A DNA stretch of 64,000 nucleotides from Sphaerodactylus townsendi (taxonomy: Eukaryota): assembly GCF_021028975.2 (NCBI RefSeq), contig NC_059436.1, forward strand, positions 35,960,001 through 36,024,000, written 5' to 3'. The notes beneath the pieces are model-generated. The model did no database searches and was not told the origin of the DNA. It saw only the letters and a list, made by a program, of their open reading frames with translations. How positions within the stretch are numbered: the first letter of the stretch is position 1; each line of letters starts with the position of its first letter. Position numbers and translations under genes: made by a program. Shown piece after piece: positions 11,488 through 47,236 of this stretch.

Positions 11488-14365
11488 TTGTTAACTGAAG
11501 ATGGGGTGGCTCCTGCCTTTGAATATGCACACAAAGTAGGTTCTTTCCCCAAAAGCAGAGATCTCGCTCATAAGATTTGATTGCTAAGCTTATGCACCAC
11601 AAAGATATCAAGAGTTCTTTGTGGAAGAGGGTGAACTCAGTCTCATGGAGTTCCAAGGGTAAACAATACGTTATACAATTTAAATGTTAATGACATAAAG
11701 TGTGCAAGTATAATATAGAAAATGCTAAAAGTTCTAAAAAAAGCCTATCCTGGTGATCCAAGAAAGTCAAAGTAAGAGACGTTTAATAATGGTTAAAAAG
11801 TTGTCTAATTTTATTTTAGACTCATCCAAGTCTGAAGAGTTGGGCCTCCTTTTCAGTTATGAAATGTGTTATCCATTTTATACATTTATTCATGTACTGC
11901 CACCTTTATTGAAAGATGATTTTGTCTCCATGCTGGTTACAGTGCAGCTATGCAAATATGAAATAATGTAGATTAGTCTTTTTACTAACTAGAATGTGGG
12001 TCCTCAACCTTTTTCAGCTCATGGACACCTTTGGAATTTCGACTTAGGGTGGTAGGCACAATTCCAGAATGGCTTTCCAGGAGATGGGGGCCACCCATAA
12101 ATGTCAGGGAGGGAGATCATGCATAATTCTAATGGTAACTCTTCAGTATTTTAGGCAGAAACTGCTTGATAGGATGCCTTTTTACATGAATATATTAAAA
12201 GTCTTGCTTTCACGCAGCTTGCCTTCAGTAATGCTGTGAAGATCCTTATGGTAGCAAGTGCTGCCAAAGCACATTTCAAAAAATGATCATAGCCAATCAG
12301 ATCGCCAGTGATCAATCAGAAGCACTGCTATGCAAAAGCTTCACCTGGCCCCACTCATATTCTAAAAACATTTGGCAGGCCCCAGGAAAGATGTTGATGG
12401 GTGCCATGTTGGGGAAATAGAGCATCATAATCTTGTTTATCCACCTGCCTACTGCATTCACTCATTCTTCCCTGATGCTTTAATTTTGTTTCTGTAGCTG
12501 TATGAAGTAGTTGAGGAAACTGTACTTGCAACATAACTTGCAGTGTTAGTTAGAAAACAAGTACTCTCTTTACAAGGCATGGCTTTTTCTGCAGTCCCAA
12601 AATGCCGCTTTCTATTCAAATATCTTCAGAAACTATCAGTGTCGACTCAAGAACTTCAGAAAGCTTATAAGTGTTTGTGGAGGGAACCAGAACGTCCTTG
12701 CATTGCATTTTTTTCCCTTAGCCTTCCAGAATGTATAGTTCACAAATAACCCTTTTCACAGAATTTGGTGTCCTAAAAGCTAACAACCTCATTTGATCAG
12801 TTAGTATATCTGTAGATAAAAAATTGTGTTTAAAAAACTAATTGCAACCAAGTTTTTTTCAAATATTTCCACCTAAGATGTCATTCAAACAGTTTTTGCT
12901 TCAAAAAACCCCCACTGTTTTCCATTGTGTTAATGCTTCCATTTATGGCTGTAAGCATACTTTGATTGGTGACTTTTTTAGAATGTTGGCCTTGAAATAT
13001 AGCATGATTTGCTTGTTTTTGCGAGCAAGTACCTTATAAACCTTACCTAGTACTTCCCACGATTTTAATTCCAGATCACTAGCTGAGTTAGTTTTAAGCA
13101 GCAAAGCAAAAACTGGAGACTCATAAATGTTTTGCTGCAGCATGTTCTCTTAGTCTCTTAAAGACTAAATGGGTCCTAGTAAATGGATGTGGGAACCCGC
13201 TTCGCAACTGTGTTATGTTGAGAATAAATTTAGAATGTGCAATTATATATAATGGTTTTAGCAGCAGCCAATTTGATTGCACATCCTCGCCCCAAATACC
13301 TATGGAGTCGAGTGCCTGTTACACATAACAGAAATCTCAAGAAGCAGGTGACATTTAAAAACTTCCTCTACCATCAGCTGGACAAGATAATACTGATCTG
13401 GATGGAGCAATGAGATGCTGCAATAAGGTAGCTTTGCATCAGCTTGGCTTGAACATGACTCTAAGAACCAAGATTTCCGAATTCCAGAGGGTAGGAGTTG
13501 GCACATGGGGCAGCAGTTCTTATCAGATTACACAGAGAAGAACTCAGAAGTGCATCTAAAAAGTCAGGAAAAGTTATTTTTTAAATTATTTATTACTTAT
13601 CCCCCATCATGCAGCTCAAGGTGGTGTATACTGAGAGATTCCCATGTGTTCTTTAGGTACCTATCAGCTCAGACAAGGCTGCCAGCTCTTGTGCCATCCA
13701 ATCAAAACCTGGTCCCAGTTTAGGAGAGGTAAGGTTTCCACATCCTGAGCTGTGTATTGTGTGATTGGATCAACTAAATGCTCCACATGCCTTTTGGATT
13801 GGATCAACTAAATGCTCCACATACACAGCAAGTATATTTTATCATGTACACCATCACTCTGCAACTTATGAAGCAAGACTTGAAAATCCTTTTGTTTTTG
13901 TCCAATCAGGTTTTGCAATAATTTTCCATATTTTGTTTCTCTCCCCAAGGGAGACCTAAAGAAGCTTCCAACCTTGTTTTACTCTCCTCCATTTTATTCT
14001 AATATCTACAATCTGGCAAGGTAAGTTAGGCTGAGAGAGAAGAGCGGATCAAGGTTATCTAGCAAGCTTCCACAACACAAGTGAAGATTCGAACCTGGGT
14101 CTCCTAGGCCCTACTCAACCATTCAGACCACAGTACTATGCTGACTGTAACACAGCCCTATTGAGCAGAGATATGAAGCATGCCCTCTTCTTAGCCAACA
14201 GTTCTAGTTTCAAAAAGGCTCCAAGGACATGTTTGTGAAGCTGTGTGACAGAAACTGTGGTAAAGACTTGTGTAATGTTAAAAGCTGCTATGCTGTCAGA
14301 CTTGGACACTGGGCCTCATTCCACGATTATTAGGACACTGGCACTGACAGCCCCTCCCCGTCCAT

Positions 14366-15934
14366 CAGGGCCAGCAAGGGAGGGAGGGCGGCCAGAGTCT
14401 CCCCACCGACGACGACGACCCTGCAGAAGAGCTCCCTCCTCCTTCTCCCCGCCCGCCGCTTCGCTCATGGGCCCCCTGGACGCTTCCGCCTGTACAGCCC
14501 CGCCGGCCAATCAAGCGGCAGGAGGAGGAGGAGGAGGAAGGGCGGCGGCCCAATTGGCGCGCTCTCTCGGGACTCGTCACCCCGGAGGCGACGGGGAGGG
14601 AGGGACGGGCTCCCGTCATTGGCTTCAAACGCCTCCTCCGCACTTGGCCTGGCTCCCCGGGACCCCCCCCCCCCCCCGTCCTGATCGGCTGCCGCAGCTG
14701 AATAAGAACTGCCCCACAGTGCTCGGAAACCCCCCCGTCCCTCCCTTGGACCACTCCACGCTGACCGCCGCCTTCGCACGAGACCCCACGTGGATGTTAT
14801 GGGGTGATTCCACTATCTTCCCAGGCCTCTTTGAGCTGGACAGCCCGTTGGGACAATGTAGCCGAGAGCCTAGGGCGCTACCTTCGCACGAGGCCCCACG
14901 TCGAGGTTGTGGCGTGTCCGAGCCTCTTTGGGCAGGGGAGCCGCTGGGGATGCTGCTGCCCTCCAGTGGCCAAAGGTGTGAATTACGAGCGCAACCACCA
15001 CCACCACCACCACCACCACGCGGCATTTCTCAGGTTATAGTTGGTATAATGTGGCGTGTCTCTTTGGGCAGGGAAGACACGGCGGAGGGCTCTCCGAGAG
15101 TGTGGTAACGCTCCCGAGATATTGCTAACTTTTCCCGAGAGCGTTGTAATGCTCTCCTAGATCGCGCTGACTCTTCCAGAGAGCGTGGTAGCGCTCTCCA
15201 AGATCGCGTTGGCTCCTCCCGAGAGCATTGTAACGCTTTCCAAGATCGTGCTGACTCTTTCCGAGAGCGTTCCAACGCTCTCCGAGATCCTGCTAATGAG
15301 CCCTCCGCAGCGGCTCCCCTGCTCAAAGAGACACGCCACATCATAGCAACTATAACCTGAGAAATGCTGGGGGGGGCGGGTTGCTCTTGTAATTCACACC
15401 TTTGGCCACTGGAGGGCAGCAGCATACCCAGCGGCTCCTCTGCCCAAAGAGGTTCGGACACGCCCATAACATCCACGTGCGGTCTCGTGCGGCGGTCAGC
15501 GTGGCTGGTCCAGGGGAGGGACGGGGGTTCCGACCACTGTGGGGCAGATTCTTCTCAGCTGCGGCACCCGATCAGGACGGGGGAATGGGGGTCCCGGGGG
15601 AGCCAGGCCAAGGTGGGGGAGGCGTTTGAAGCCAATGACGGGAGCCCCTCCCTCCCCGTCGCCTCCGGGGTGACGTGTCCCGAGAGAGCGCGCTGATTGG
15701 GCCGCCGCCCTTCCTCCTCCTCCTCCTCCTCCCCCTCCTGCTGCTTGATTGGCCGGCGGGGTGCCGATATTTTATTTTGGTGCAGATATGTCTAAAAATG
15801 CACACAGACCCCGCAGGCACCAATGACCTGTGCAAAACAATTTTTTGGTCGTGGTGGGGTGGCCGCCCATGGGGGGTGGGGGGAATCCAACTCAGGTTTT
15901 GCCCAGGGCTCCAGTTTGCCTCCTTACGCCCCTG
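14366..15934. other. CpG-rich composite element: ~1.26 kb imperfect palindrome with central tandem array, possibly bounded by hAT-like ends
   Basis: Arms 14498-15092 and 15298-15761 are reverse complements; centre is a 21/42-bp array; right end ...CCTTACGCCCCTG resembles a hAT terminus; left boundary uncertain. Confidence 0.7.
15093..15297. repeat. Tandem array of ten ~21-bp units with alternating A/B (42-bp) higher-order structure
   Basis: A ~CCGAGAGCGTTGTAACGCTCT, B ~CCAAGATCGCGCTGACTCTTT, five of each. Confidence 0.85.
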
Positions 15935-16329
15935 CCATTGATAATGGAAAATACTTCTTTATTCAACAAGGAATTAAATTGTAGAAATTCTAGCCAATGG
16001 ACATCGTTGGTCAGGAGCATGAGTAGCTTTAAAGGGGATGGAGAGATTAATTCAAACAGCTGCTAGTCACAGCGACTGAAGGGATTTTCATAGTCGGAGG
16101 CATCAAACTTTTGATTAGGAGTGATGAGAAGTAGCTTGAAAAGGAGGCCTTGCATGTGTGTGCTGGCAACTGGAGAACTGCTGGGTTTAACCAGGTGCTA
16201 GCCTAGGCGGGTCATTGATCCGATCCTCAGACCTGAAATAAATCAGATAAATGTGCAGAGTGCGCTTTCCTGAGAGAAAACTAAAACCATCAAGAAATTA
16301 AGAAGACGGTCTTCTGGGACGAGGAATCC

Positions 16330-16554
16330 TTTTGCTGTTTGAGCTGAGCCCGCACTCTCCCTCCAAGCAAGCGATTTCAACCGCAGCAGCACGGCCAAGC
16401 GTGATTCTCATCCGCGCACGGGAGGGGGGCGTGGTCATGCAAATGAAGGGCGGGCTCGCGGGGGTTGCTGGGAAAACAGCTTGGGTTGTTCCCACGCGCG
16501 GGCGGTCATCTGTGCCTAAGGACGGGATTCTAGCAGTGGACGAGCCGGCTTGCG
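16330..16554 (+). promoter_or_regulatory. ALAD: ALAD housekeeping CpG promoter and non-coding exon 1
   Basis: CpG-rich; GC boxes; octamer ATGCAAAT 16437-16444; donor GCG/GTAGGT at 16555. Confidence 0.65.
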
Positions 16555-18249
16555 GTAGGTACCGGGTCTCCTTAAATGCGTTGTCGTGCATGGCCGGATC
16601 TAGTGGGATGAGGCCGGAAAAAAGTAGGGTCTATGCTGGGTTGTCGCAGGGGAAGGTCTCCGGGGGTTAAAATATGGGTCCGTACCTGGACCCATGTCCC
16701 GAACGGGGGTTTCTTCCTTGTTCTATCTCGCAGTTGTCTGGACTGGGGTAGAGGTCACGGTGCTCCCCTTTGGAACGGATTGAGTAATCCCTTTGGATTT
16801 TTCATTGAGGGAAATGTTTTGCAAGGATTGCACTAATCCCAGCTGGTCAGGGGTTCACTGTGAGTAAAGCTAATAGAGGGGTGTGTATGGCGCATTCATG
16901 GTAGGTCCTTGGGGAGCGCCTAAGTGCTGGGGCCAGTGGCCAGCGGCTTAGTTCTTCTCGATCTCGTTTCCCCACCGAACGGAGCCGGGGTTGTGAGTTC
17001 TCCGGTGCTGTATTGTTACAAACCGGATCTTGATGCATTTTGACTTGGAAGCAGCCGGCCTTCCTGGATTCCAAGGGATTTACGCACATTGTTGAGGCTT
17101 AAGACTTCCAGTCCCATTCTGGGTAGTAACTGTCGAGCGTACCCCTCTGTAACGGTTTGCCTTCTCGTGGAAATCGGGTTAGCAAAACGAGAGCTTTTAC
17201 CCTCATAACTTTGGGAGCGGATCTACTCAGAATCCTACTCGAGTCCATTCAGTGGGGCTTACTCCTAGGAAAGCATTATTTAGACTTGCACTGTTACTTA
17301 CTCAGCATTCTATGTCTTGCGGTTGAAGTACAGGCCAATTATACAAACCCATGATGTAGTCTGGGGTGAGAGGGTGGAGAAGCAAAAGTGGTGTTTGGTT
17401 GATCTGTGATAAACGACTTGCATGTTTGCTAGCTTCTCTCCTTTCCCTTTACTTCCCCCAGTGTCAAAATGTGAATTGTATTAAATTTAAGTGCGAACCG
17501 CTTAGGGACTGGGATCTATTTTTGTGAAGCTGTGTAACTGTTCAAAGTCTGTGTACTCGTAGTAACAATTCTTGAAAACGCCGGTAATAAACAGTGCCTG
17601 TACTGAAGTTGTTGAGTTTGGGGCTACAGAATGCAGCTGGAGTTGTCTTGGGTGGCTTTAAGAGGCGATGGGGTGGGACAAATTCATGGTGGACGAGCCC
17701 TTCAACGGACTTTTGGCTGCAACAGCTAGTTGGAGTTTCCAACTTTGGAAGCAGTGAATACTATTTGCTGAGGCTGCAGACAGTTGTGTTGCCTTTGTGC
17801 TGTTTGTGGGCTTCCCAGATGGCATCTGGCCGGCTGCTGTTGAGATCAAGACACCAGACTAGCTGGGCCTTTGATCTGACCCAGCGGGACTTAGCTGCTT
17901 ATATGAATTTTTGGCTGAACCTGCAACCCTCTTCGTTGCAATGAGTTTTATGTTGCACCAGCAGCTAACGTCTTCTCAGCCTGGCCTTGAGTCCTGAGAT
18001 AAACTGAGTTGCAAAACATTCTCCCGATTATGTGTGTCTCTCTCTCTTTTATTGCTGTTATTATAATGTGTGGCTCTGAAAAGGGTAGCGTCATGAGCAG
18101 CAGCAGATTGTATCTTGCAAGAGGCTGTATTTTTCCTGATGTTCTCTATATGTGCAAAGGTTATTTGACCCATGTGGTGCAACCAGAACCCTCTGGGGAA
18201 GGGATGGTGGTTCTGAGTCTCTTGCTCAACATTAATTAAAATTGGTGGT

Positions 18250-18452
18250 GGTGAAGGTGCTGTCAAGTCATAGCAGCTATAGGTGACTTATGGCAGCCTG
18301 TAGAGTTTTCAAGTCAACATCCCAAGGAGCTTGCCAATGCCTGCCTTTGCATAGCAACCCTGGACTTCCTGGATGGTCTCCCATCCAAGTACTAACTAGA
18401 GTTGACCCTGCTTAGTTTCTGAGATCTGATGGGAGCAGGCTAGCCAGGGCAG
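18250..18452 (-). mobile_element. 5S rRNA-derived SINE with Sauria/BovB tail (similar copies ~31710-31870(-), ~53450-53610(+), ~57250-57395(+))
   Basis: Reverse complement GATCTCAGAAACTAAGCAGGGTC...GTTAGTACTTGGATGGGAGACC (5S internal control region) joined to Sauria-type tail. Confidence 0.75.
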
Positions 18453-18932
18453 GGCAGGAGATCTTGGAGTGTTCATGCACTTTGACTTACATAAATGGTC
18501 TTCAATGTTGCAGTCATTTTATTATTCTTTAGATATTATACACAGCTTTTCTTCCCAGTGGGACCCAAAGTAGCTTAATTGCTTTGTTTTCTGCTTCTCC
18601 ATTTGATTGTCTTAAAAACAGTGGTGTGGGAGGAGCAAGGCTGAGTGACTAGCCCACTCAGAATCGTAAATTCCAAAGCCATCCTGTTTGGTTCTTGCTG
18701 CATACAGGCGAGATGTGGTTGCTTGATTCTGCTCACACTCCAAAGAACTATTTGTGCTTCGTGGTTTCAGTCCCTGAGCCATGGCAATCAGATAGTCCTA
18801 CCTGCAGCATTATTGGATGATCTTGCAGAGTATACATCCCCCAAACTGAACAATGCTAAAAAAAAATACTATCAGGAATAGGCTAGGCCTGCCAGGATCC
18901 AGCTCTATGAAAACTGTGTACTGTGAGTTTGT

Positions 18933-19073
18933 GGCTCATTCCACACATGCAGAATAATGTACTTTCAAACTGCTTTCAGTGCTCTTTGAAGCTGTGCGGA
19001 ATGGCAAAATCCACTTGCAAACAGTTGTGAAATTGGTTTGAAAACGCATTATTTTGCGTGTGCGGAAGGGGCC
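18933..19073. mobile_element. Palindromic PIF/Harbinger-type MITE (second copy ~63425-63556)
   Basis: Termini GGCTCATTCCACACATGCAGAATAATG / CATTATTTTGCGTGTGCGGAAGGGGCC; 3-bp TGT on both sides. Confidence 0.65.
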
Positions 19074-19960
19074 TGTGACTGACTTTTGAAAGCCAGATTC
19101 AGTTGGATAGGAATAGAACAGGTATGATGAATTTCTCAAATGAAAGGTGCTTGGAATGAACGCATTAGTTACGGAGAGGGCATACATCATAAATGTAGCT
19201 GAGTAGCTGCCCCTTCTCGATGCTCATATACCATTTGCTGGTCCCCTCCCAGGGTTGGGACCGGGCACCACCCACCAAGTGGTAGATTGGTCATACTGCT
19301 GCTATTCTAATTAGTGGATTCCATGGTTTTTAATGATTGATTGTCTTTGTGCACTGGACTTTATTGTTTTATTCTTTTGTTTACATGTACACCACTCTGA
19401 GCCCTTCAGGAGTAGAGCGGTTAAGAAATCTAATAATAATAAGAATAATGATGATGATGATGTTACTTGGATGGCCTAATTAGTAGTGGTAGTGGCTGCC
19501 TCGGCTGTTGAACCTGCAACAGGCTCGCCAGGCTAGATTGGTACTGGAGGAAGTGGTCAGCACCGGGAGGGGTGGTGGCTGCCTTAGCTGGTGAGCCCAC
19601 AGCCAGCTCCCTAGCCCAGATGGGCATGAGGGGGTGGCTCGCCAGGACAGATTGGGAGAGGGCGGAATGGGTGCTTGGATTGGCGAGCCTACAGCTGGTT
19701 TGCCATGCCAGACCAGAAGGGGGGTTGCCTCACCTGGCTTCCTGACCTGATAAGTCCTCTCAAGGGGCCGGATCCAGCCCCCAGGCAACACGTTCGGCAC
19801 CCTGCTCTAGATGTCTGTTCTGAGGGCTACAGTGAAACCCAAGACTGCACATAGTAGAATATGAGTGCATAGGAACACGTTCCACGTTAAGGTCACTGTG
19901 CTTGATGGCTCTTTGTATATTTCAGAATCTCTTCACCCTGAACCTTACTGGTGAGATCTT

Positions 19961-46484: not shown

Positions 46485-47236
46485 CAGGGGTCGGGAACCC
46501 GCGGCTCGCGAGCCGCTGTTCTGCGGCTCCATGAGCGGAGCCGCTGGCCCCACCTTCGCCCGCCCTGCAGGCAGCAGGGCGGGCGCATCCTTCGCCCGCG
46601 GCCGGCTAGGCCGCGCCGCGGGCTTTGCCTCCTGCCCGCCCCGCTGCTTGCGGGGCGGGCGCTCTCCCGGCGGCCGGGCAGGCCGAGCCGCCGGGCCCCT
46701 CTTCGCTCGCCCTGCAGGAAGCAGGGCGGGCACATCTCTAGCCCGCGGCCGGCGAGGCCGCACCGCGGGCTTTGCCTCCTGCCCGCCCCGCTTCTTGCGG
46801 GGTGGGCGCTCTCCCGGCGGCCGGGCAGGCCAAGCCGCCGGGCCCCTCTTCGCTTGCCCTGCAGGAAGCAGGGCGGGCACATCTCTAGCCCGCGGCCGGC
46901 GAGGCCGCACCGCGGGCTTTGCCTCCTGCCCGCCCTGCTGCTTGCGGGGCGGGCGCTCTCCCGGCGGCCGGGCAGGCCGGGCAGGCCGAGCCGCCGGGCC
47001 CCTCTTCGCCCCCTGACTTTGCTGGTTGCGGGGCCGCCGGCCCCATCCTCACCTGCCCTGCAGGCGGGGGGGGTGAGCGGGGGGAGGGAGGGCGAGCGAG
47101 TTGGCGGGGGAGCGGACGGGGGGCGAGCGAGTGGGTGGGGGGGTGAGCGGGGGTGTGCCAAATGGCTCTTTGGTGGTGAGCCAAATTTGGTGGTGAGCCA
47201 AATGGCTCTTTGAGGGGAAAAGGTTCCCGACCCCTG
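46485..47236. mobile_element. Non-autonomous hAT element with three 147-bp GC-rich tandem units
   Basis: TIR CAGGGGTCGGGAACC; exact TSD GTCTAGAT; CCTGCAGG at 46564, 46711, 46858. Confidence 0.92.

What the first reader, a model, noticed from the sequence alone, without database searches (positions are those of the whole stretch)
15093..15297. Array of alternating hairpin and spacer 21-mers at the palindrome centre
Seen: ten ~21-bp units alternate A/B. A units are self-complementary (GAGAGCGTT-CC-AACGCTCTC is perfect at ~15263-15282; others are GAGAGCGTTGTAATGCTCTC and GAGAGCGTGGTAGCGCTCTC). B units (AGATCGCGCTGACTCTT-like) are related but not palindromic. A CCRAGA-like word recurs about every 21 bp, two helical turns, so the sites lie on one face of the helix. 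Inference: an iteron-like array for a dimeric DNA-binding protein (transposase, viral origin protein or host factor), or a string of RNA stem-loops.
Basis: partly seen in the sequence, partly recalled or inferred. Interest (0 to 1): 0.7.

Follow-up and report, generated by a model that had tools for sequence, protein, structure and literature searches.

The report
Transposon-borne minisatellite in mobile CpG island
This 21-base repeat is the variable centre of a palindromic, promoter-like cargo that a cut-and-paste jumping gene spread to at least 55 places in a lizard genome, mostly on the six smallest chromosomes; it shows no sign of selection for RNA hairpins, and the cargo likely escapes the DNA methylation that normally silences such elements.

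Summary
The array is real: ten ~21-bp units with a 42-bp period. A and B are variants of one near-palindromic 21-mer. It is the centre of a 1.26-kb palindrome carried by a non-autonomous hAT composite. Four of four copies with both ends have 8-bp target duplications (one 7/8). The window copy lacks the left hAT unit and shows a footprint-like junction, ~370 bp upstream of the CpG island before ALAD. Across 21 paralogous arrays, length runs 99–513 bp. Alternation is family-wide (r = -0.41), but compensatory changes are not in excess (24 vs 34 expected), so RNA stem-loops are unsupported. No viral origin was found; protein binding is untested. The surprises concern the cargo: 50 of 55 loci lie on the six smallest chromosomes (15% of the assembly), 12 of 40 lie within 1 kb of a single-copy CpG island (controls 3/40, 1/20), and CpGs decay only 1.75-fold faster than other C/G, against 3.5–7.5-fold in control repeats. 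Sister cargos carry differently built arrays of the same CGTTATAACG core. The scan noted Pack-type hATs with CpG-island cargo in other lizards; sequence look-ups did not find this family.

The parts
15093..15297 (+). Minisatellite: ten ~21-bp units in 42-bp A/B dimers; family consensus CGAGAGCGT(G/T)(G/C)TAACGCT(T/G/C)(T/C)C; CpG observed/expected 1.23
15263..15282 (.). Fully self-complementary A unit; its CC centre differs from the family's GT
14498..15092 (+). Left arm of the palindrome, with two ~110-bp subrepeats starting at 14766 and 14876
15298..15761 (-). Right arm of the palindrome (internally deleted relative to the left)
14342..14497 (+). Unpaired left part of the cargo; shared with a sister GC-rich module that continues further left
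14339..14341 (+). TGG at the left junction, matching a hairpin-type excision footprint of the lost left hAT unit (inferred; could also come from a local 9-bp repeat of 14304-14312)
15762..15934 (+). Right end of a high-copy non-autonomous hAT, terminal repeat TTACGCCCCTG at 15924-15934
15935..15942 (+). Expected target-site 8-mer; its left copy is not preserved in this copy
14958..14969 (-). CTCF-like word (motif recalled, simple pattern match); mirror copy at 15406-15417 on +
14507..15752 (.). Six CCAAT cores in the cargo (14507, 14550, 14618, 15632, 15696, 15748); pattern matches only
16301..16800 (+). Host CpG island, likely the ALAD promoter; ALAD exons follow at 22.5-28.3 kb on +

Best explanation
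The array is a 21-bp minisatellite, likely grown by slippage of a 42-bp dimer, at the centre of a palindromic CpG-island-like cargo that a non-autonomous hAT transposon carried to at least 55 sites, and it likely acts, if at all, as double-stranded DNA within a cargo that likely stays unmethylated in the germline. Shown: the repeat structure; the composite (whole hAT unit + cargo + second hAT right end) bounded by 8-bp duplications; variable unit number among copies; no covariation; low CpG decay; the chromosome bias. Inferred: the hAT unit landed in a GC-rich module, a second right end let the transposase move both together, and later the inner hAT unit excised by its own two ends and left the cargo stranded with one end, as here. 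One ancestral near-palindromic 21-mer diverged into A and B, and the pair then became the unit of duplication. I take the array itself to be mostly a passenger, and protection from methylation to come from the cargo as a whole (CpG density plus CCAAT and GC boxes).
For: Composite target duplications 3 perfect and 1 at 7/8 in the 4 copies with both ends, of 10 examined. Cargo-free hAT copies: 5 perfect, one 7/8, one 6/8, two unmatched, of 9 with both ends, 11 examined. Among 19 two-ended cargo rows, 6 keep 7-8 letters of the downstream 8-mer at the left junction and 4 show TGG; such footprints are described for hAT elements (PMC3499496, passages). Arrays 99-513 bp with 4-19 scored units in 21 copies. 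B units are more alike within than between arrays (5.6 vs 7.2 differences). Off-period steps of 19-23 and 27-36 bp are common. CpG/non-CpG transition ratio 1.75 in cargo, 1.31 in the array, 3.5-4.4 in the hAT, 7.5 in another GC-rich repeat; 1.57 near and 1.84 far from islands; 1.76 in 8 copies found with a CpG-free word. A colinear single-depth contig of organism C differs at 10 of 171 array bases vs 20 of 1058 flank bases.
Against: A units are better conserved than B (3.3 vs 4.75 differences of 19; 18 of 20 arrays) and A-type neighbours are rare (3 steps vs 58 A-B steps), which a pure passenger does not require. The same core and a 21-bp step recur in sister arrays with unrelated flanks. The window copy keeps only 3 letters of its expected target duplication. 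No transposase and no single-copy donor were identified. Methylation is inferred from substitutions, not measured. Paralogs share ancestry, so unit counts are not independent. Orthology of the organism C contig is not proven; a second similar contig exists.
Confidence: 0.6

Rival explanations
1. The array is a functional landing pad: full and half sites of a TAACG-type motif for a host factor that keeps the cargo open and unmethylated and draws it to promoter-rich chromatin.
For: CGTTATAACG-like core in three array types with different flanks; step 21 in 31 of 53 type-1 steps and 21 of the type-3 steps. A better kept than B. Array CpG decay ratio 1.31. Cargo 50 of 55 on small chromosomes while the matching hAT left end is 4 of 16.
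Against: Type-3 arrays mostly step 12, also 15 and 27. 58 of 183 near-unit steps are off 21. Divergence in A is 10.6% in the core and 8.9% in the left flank. Common descent also explains a shared core. No binding data.
Confidence: 0.25
2. The units are relic transposase-binding repeats of an older, long-armed transposon whose pieces were later picked up by hATs.
For: Arms are built of ~110-125-bp subrepeats in direct and inverted order, and the same modules ride beside a second small inverted-repeat element.
Against: No fixed termini or target duplication were found for the inner palindrome; the array is central, not subterminal; no transposase was searched for.
Confidence: 0.08
3. The array works as a string of RNA stem-loops.
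For: The stretch folds better than shuffles (RNA z -5.9).
Against: The predicted fold pairs A units with each other, as any palindromic repeat would; no excess compensation and no G.U strand bias.
Confidence: 0.03
4. The palindrome is an integrated viral replication origin with iterons.
For: Palindrome with central 21-bp-spaced dyads resembles some herpesvirus origins (recalled, no call).
Against: One isolated match to the A unit in viral contigs; the two long ORFs over the element have no Pfam hit; flanks are hAT ends with 8-bp duplications.
Confidence: 0.02

Closest known systems
Multicopy Pack-TIRs of animals, e.g. Pack-hAT-N8_XT (Tan et al. 2021, PMC8277862; passages read)
   Same: Non-autonomous TIR element carrying GC-rich non-TE cargo, multiplied by repeated transposition; copies lose a TE end.
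   Different: The paper's passages describe four multicopy cases in frog and alligator with an identified parent; here at least 55 loci, no parent found, a palindromic cargo with a central minisatellite, and an inner hAT unit that excises. 'CpG' does not occur in that paper's main text; supplements not seen.
Non-autonomous hAT families of Anolis, hobo-N_AC series (Novick et al., PMC3014272; hAT section read in full)
   Same: 8-bp duplications, YARNG termini, incorporation of extraneous genomic DNA, structural shuffling.
   Different: This terminal repeat is not in their Table 1; that section reports no central minisatellite or methylation escape.
Tandem-repeat-bearing MITEs: DTC84 (PMC3879986, abstract); miDNA4, Xstir, CgHINE (review PMC9659126, passages)
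   Same: Short variable array inside a non-autonomous DNA transposon, ordered repeat variants, palindromes within units.
   Different: Unit is 21 bp and CpG-rich, sits in a 1.26-kb palindrome, and the carrier is a hAT composite.
TcBuster hAT (PMC3499496, passages)
   Same: Hairpin-type footprints and increased integration near transcription starts and CpG islands.
   Different: Here the bias follows the cargo rather than the hAT ends.

Membership tests
Non-autonomous hAT transposon (carrier) | 8-bp target-site duplication | tested here: met
   Composite 4 of 4 two-ended copies (one 7/8); cargo-free 7 of 9 at 6/8 or better. Not preserved in the window copy.
Non-autonomous hAT transposon (carrier) | Short terminal inverted repeats starting YARNG | tested here: met
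   CAGGGGCGTAA at both ends; criterion from PMC3014272.
Non-autonomous hAT transposon (carrier) | Hairpin-type excision footprints | tested here: met
   TGG filler in 4 of 19 rows and target remnants in 6 of 19; interpretation inferred.
Non-autonomous hAT transposon (carrier) | Cognate hAT transposase in the genome | not tested
   No transposase search was run.
Multicopy Pack-TIR | Cargo between TIR ends, several copies with distinct duplications | tested here: met
Multicopy Pack-TIR | Identifiable host parental copy of the cargo | tested here: inconclusive
   Only multi-copy sister modules were found; searches return best candidates only.
Minisatellite (VNTR) | Tandem units of 10-60 bp with variant repeats and variable number | tested here: met
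   (among paralogs)
Minisatellite (VNTR) | Length polymorphism at this locus | tested here: inconclusive
   Organism C contigs are colinear without gaps; a second organism A sample has one identical and one variant contig.
Conserved RNA stem-loop array | Compensatory base changes above chance | tested here: not met
   24 vs 34.4; A only 3 vs 3.5
Conserved RNA stem-loop array | Match to a known RNA family | tested here: not met
   Rfam scan of the window: only a 5S-like match at 18358-18452
Iteron-type protein-binding array | Fixed helical spacing | tested here: inconclusive
   125 of 183 near-unit steps are 21; sister type steps 12
Iteron-type protein-binding array | Sequence-specific protein binding | not testable with these tools
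   needs EMSA, footprinting or pull-down
CpG island | GC above 55%, CpG o/e above 0.65, over 500 bp | tested here: met
   14342-15761: GC 0.64, o/e 0.73
CpG island | Unmethylated in the germline | tested here: inconclusive
   Indirect only: CpG decay ratio 1.75 vs 3.5-7.5 in controls

The most novel reading that the evidence does not exclude
A vertebrate DNA transposon carries a self-protecting, portable CpG island whose central array of TAACG-type sites binds a host germline factor; this keeps every copy unmethylated and steers or confines the composite to promoter flanks on the small gene-dense chromosomes, after which the carrier excises and leaves an orphan island.
Probability: 0.2. Interest if true: 0.8.

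Novelty: new variant of a known kind. Interest (0 to 1): 0.45.

Why it matters
Vertebrate transposons are normally methylated in the germline and are reported to be nearly absent from CpG islands (PMC12582260, abstract and opening text seen). A family that seems to keep its CpGs at dozens of sites is a natural replicated test of which sequences protect an island from methylation, and a possible route to orphan islands. The array alone, without that context, is an ordinary transposon-borne minisatellite.

Tried and rejected
RNA hairpin selection: rejected. Coding heptad repeat: rejected; 89 of 96 non-21 steps break frame and the overlapping ORFs have no Pfam hit. Circle integration or rolling-circle origin, considered from the head-to-tail junction: rejected once whole hAT units with 8-bp duplications were found. 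Inner palindrome as a free-standing Harbinger-type MITE: no fixed ends or duplication seen. Ascertainment by CpG-bearing queries: a CpG-free 19-mer gave the same chromosome bias and decay ratio. Promoter test: the first version counted repeat-derived islands and was redone with repeats masked; one hit (L180) proved to be the element's own arm and was dropped; five distance cut-offs were tried and p-values are uncorrected, the effect fading at 2.5 kb (p 0.07 and 0.37). Pfam on 18 first-exon ORFs near other copies: no hits. Expression: no RNA holder listed. Literature: searches for this family were blank or off-topic; most subscription papers and Repbase/Dfam were not searchable. Scan look-ups by sequence and place found nothing.

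Full report
Observation. The array is as described. Tandem Repeats Finder gives period 42 (4.7 copies) and period 21; autocorrelation at 42 is 0.70 against a maximum of 0.43 in 5000 shuffles. A units keep 6-9 of 9 possible pairs, B units 2-4. It sits between inverted arms 14498-15092 and 15298-15761.

Setting. The genome is a 1.81-Gb lizard assembly (gecko by earlier scan notes). ALAD exons lie at 22.5-28.3 kb on + (Pfam PF00490) and a CpG island at 16.3-16.8 kb is its likely promoter. The element ends about 370 bp upstream of it.

The carrier. The array belongs to a dispersed repeat spanning 14342-15934. Its last ~170 bp are the right end of a high-copy element (1730 first-look candidates) with short terminal repeats CAGGGGCGTAA and 8-bp target duplications (7 of 9 two-ended copies at 6/8 or better, 11 examined). 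These are hAT features as listed for Anolis (PMC3014272, hAT section). Some copies keep a whole hAT unit left of the cargo. In all 4 such copies with both outer ends (10 examined) one 8-bp duplication brackets hAT unit, cargo and second right end, so the composite moved as one piece. Many copies, including this one, lack the left unit. Of 19 two-ended rows, 6 keep 7-8 letters of the downstream 8-mer at the left junction and 4 carry TGG, the complement expected from a hairpin on the cargo end (mechanism in PMC3499496, passages). I infer that the inner unit excised and stranded the cargo. In the window the TGG is present but the target remnant is not, and a nearby 9-bp repeat could also explain the junction. 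Left and right flank contigs run into the element in runs labelled as four and three organisms respectively, so the insertion predates their split.

The array across copies. In 21 paralogous arrays bounded by both arm tips, length runs 99-513 bp. A profile from 242 units gives one consensus, CGAGAGCGT(G/T)(G/C)TAACGCT(T/G/C)(T/C)C; A and B differ mainly at the centre. Of 221 steps 125 are 21 bp, 58 more are 19-23 bp, and 13 are 27-36 bp, often with a half-length unit. Alternation of more and less palindromic units holds across the family (lag-1 r = -0.41; permutation null -0.02, sd 0.07; 0 of 5000), strongly in some arrays and not at all in others. Compensatory changes number 24 against 34.4 expected, 3 against 3.5 in A units alone, and G.T and A.C mismatches are equal. 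The strong folding z-score follows from the palindromic unit. A units are better kept than B (18 of 20 arrays), but their left flank is as conserved as the core. A colinear contig of organism C suggests the same unit number and about three times the flank divergence (10/171 vs 20/1058, p 0.005), with orthology unproven.

Sister modules. The cargo's left part continues into a related GC-rich module at other loci. These modules carry their own arrays around CGTTATAACG: 12 arrays step mainly 21 bp (31 of 53 steps), 27 arrays step mainly 12 bp. Some ride beside a different small inverted-repeat element. The core is thus older than this hAT composite; shared descent and shared binding both fit.

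What is unusual. (1) A CpG-free 19-mer of the arm has 82 exact matches at 55 loci (my grouping); 50 loci are on C12-C17, 14.8% of the assembly. The left end of the matching hAT subfamily has 16 exact matches, only 4 on those chromosomes (p 6e-7). (2) 12 of 40 cargo copies lie within 1 kb of a single-copy CpG island, against 3 of 40 sites 250 kb away (p 0.020) and 1 of 20 cargo-free hAT copies (p 0.043), after dropping one false hit. The hAT controls are mostly on large chromosomes, the p-values are uncorrected, and most copies (28 of 40) are not near an island. (3) CpG transitions are 4.8% against 2.7% at other C/G (ratio 1.75); the hAT gives 3.5-4.4 and another GC-rich repeat 7.5. The ratio is the same near and far from islands and in 8 copies picked without CpG bias, and 1.31 in the array. 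This suggests, without measuring it, that the cargo stays largely unmethylated in the germline.

Mechanism. Shown: structure, composite transposition, array turnover, absence of covariation, the three biases. Inferred: slippage of a 42-bp dimer, excision of the inner hAT unit, germline hypomethylation. I put 0.6 on the array being mainly a passenger in a mobile CpG island and 0.25 on it being the binding platform that protects and positions the cargo. Motif names (CTCF, NF-Y) are recalled and rest on pattern matches.

Comparison. It works like a multicopy Pack-TIR (PMC8277862, passages) combined with a repeat-bearing MITE (PMC3879986, abstract; PMC9659126, passages; PMC12187468, passages). The carrier passes the hAT tests that were run; the Pack-TIR requirement of a parental copy is unmet so far. 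Paper searches found no description of this family (supplied comparison papers), but repeat databases and supplements were not seen. Earlier scan notes report hATs with CpG-island cargo in other lizards; one judged its copies likely silenced, unlike the pattern here.

Verdict. Real, transposon-borne, not an RNA structure or viral origin; a new variant of a known kind, with a testable hint of a methylation-resistant mobile CpG island. Interest 0.45.

Noticed in passing
L108:5420-5540, L109:4140-4340, L110:4160-4345, L111:4745-4940, L253, L257, L260: Sister GC-rich modules with 21-bp-step arrays of GTCGTTATAACGAC, several directly beside promoter-like CpG-rich DNA; L108 and L111 also hold CTCF-like words (motif recalled).
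   Followed up: partly
L310:3705-5070 and related loci L311-L329: The same arm subrepeats and a 12-bp-step CGTTATAACG array travel beside a different ~130-bp inverted-repeat element, a second carrier for the cargo modules.
   Followed up: partly
L118, L120, L125, L126, L133: Cargo copies sit on the upstream side of first exons; translations resemble PSMD5, UCK1 and TIMM22 (names recalled; Pfam gave no hit).
   Followed up: partly
L179 (G000:C15:15.16-15.17 Mb): Two cargo copies with the same target site in a local duplication that also carries tRNA-Gln genes.
   Followed up: no
G000:C4:141-158 Mb: The distal part of C4 holds most cargo copies outside C12-C17, as if it behaves like a fused small chromosome.
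   Followed up: no
L104-L106: Segmental duplicates on C3, C5 and C16 with an intronless piece resembling TRIM24/33 (name recalled) next to a sister module; L106 has 1.4-kb inverted arms.
   Followed up: no
window 46538-46979: GC-rich 147-bp tandem repeat, three copies, 93% matches.
   Followed up: no
window 16437-16444: Octamer word ATGCAAAT with GC boxes in the CpG island before ALAD (motif recalled).
   Followed up: no
window 18358-18452 and about 18930-19075: A 5S rRNA-like match and a short palindromic MITE-like element in the likely first ALAD intron.
   Followed up: no
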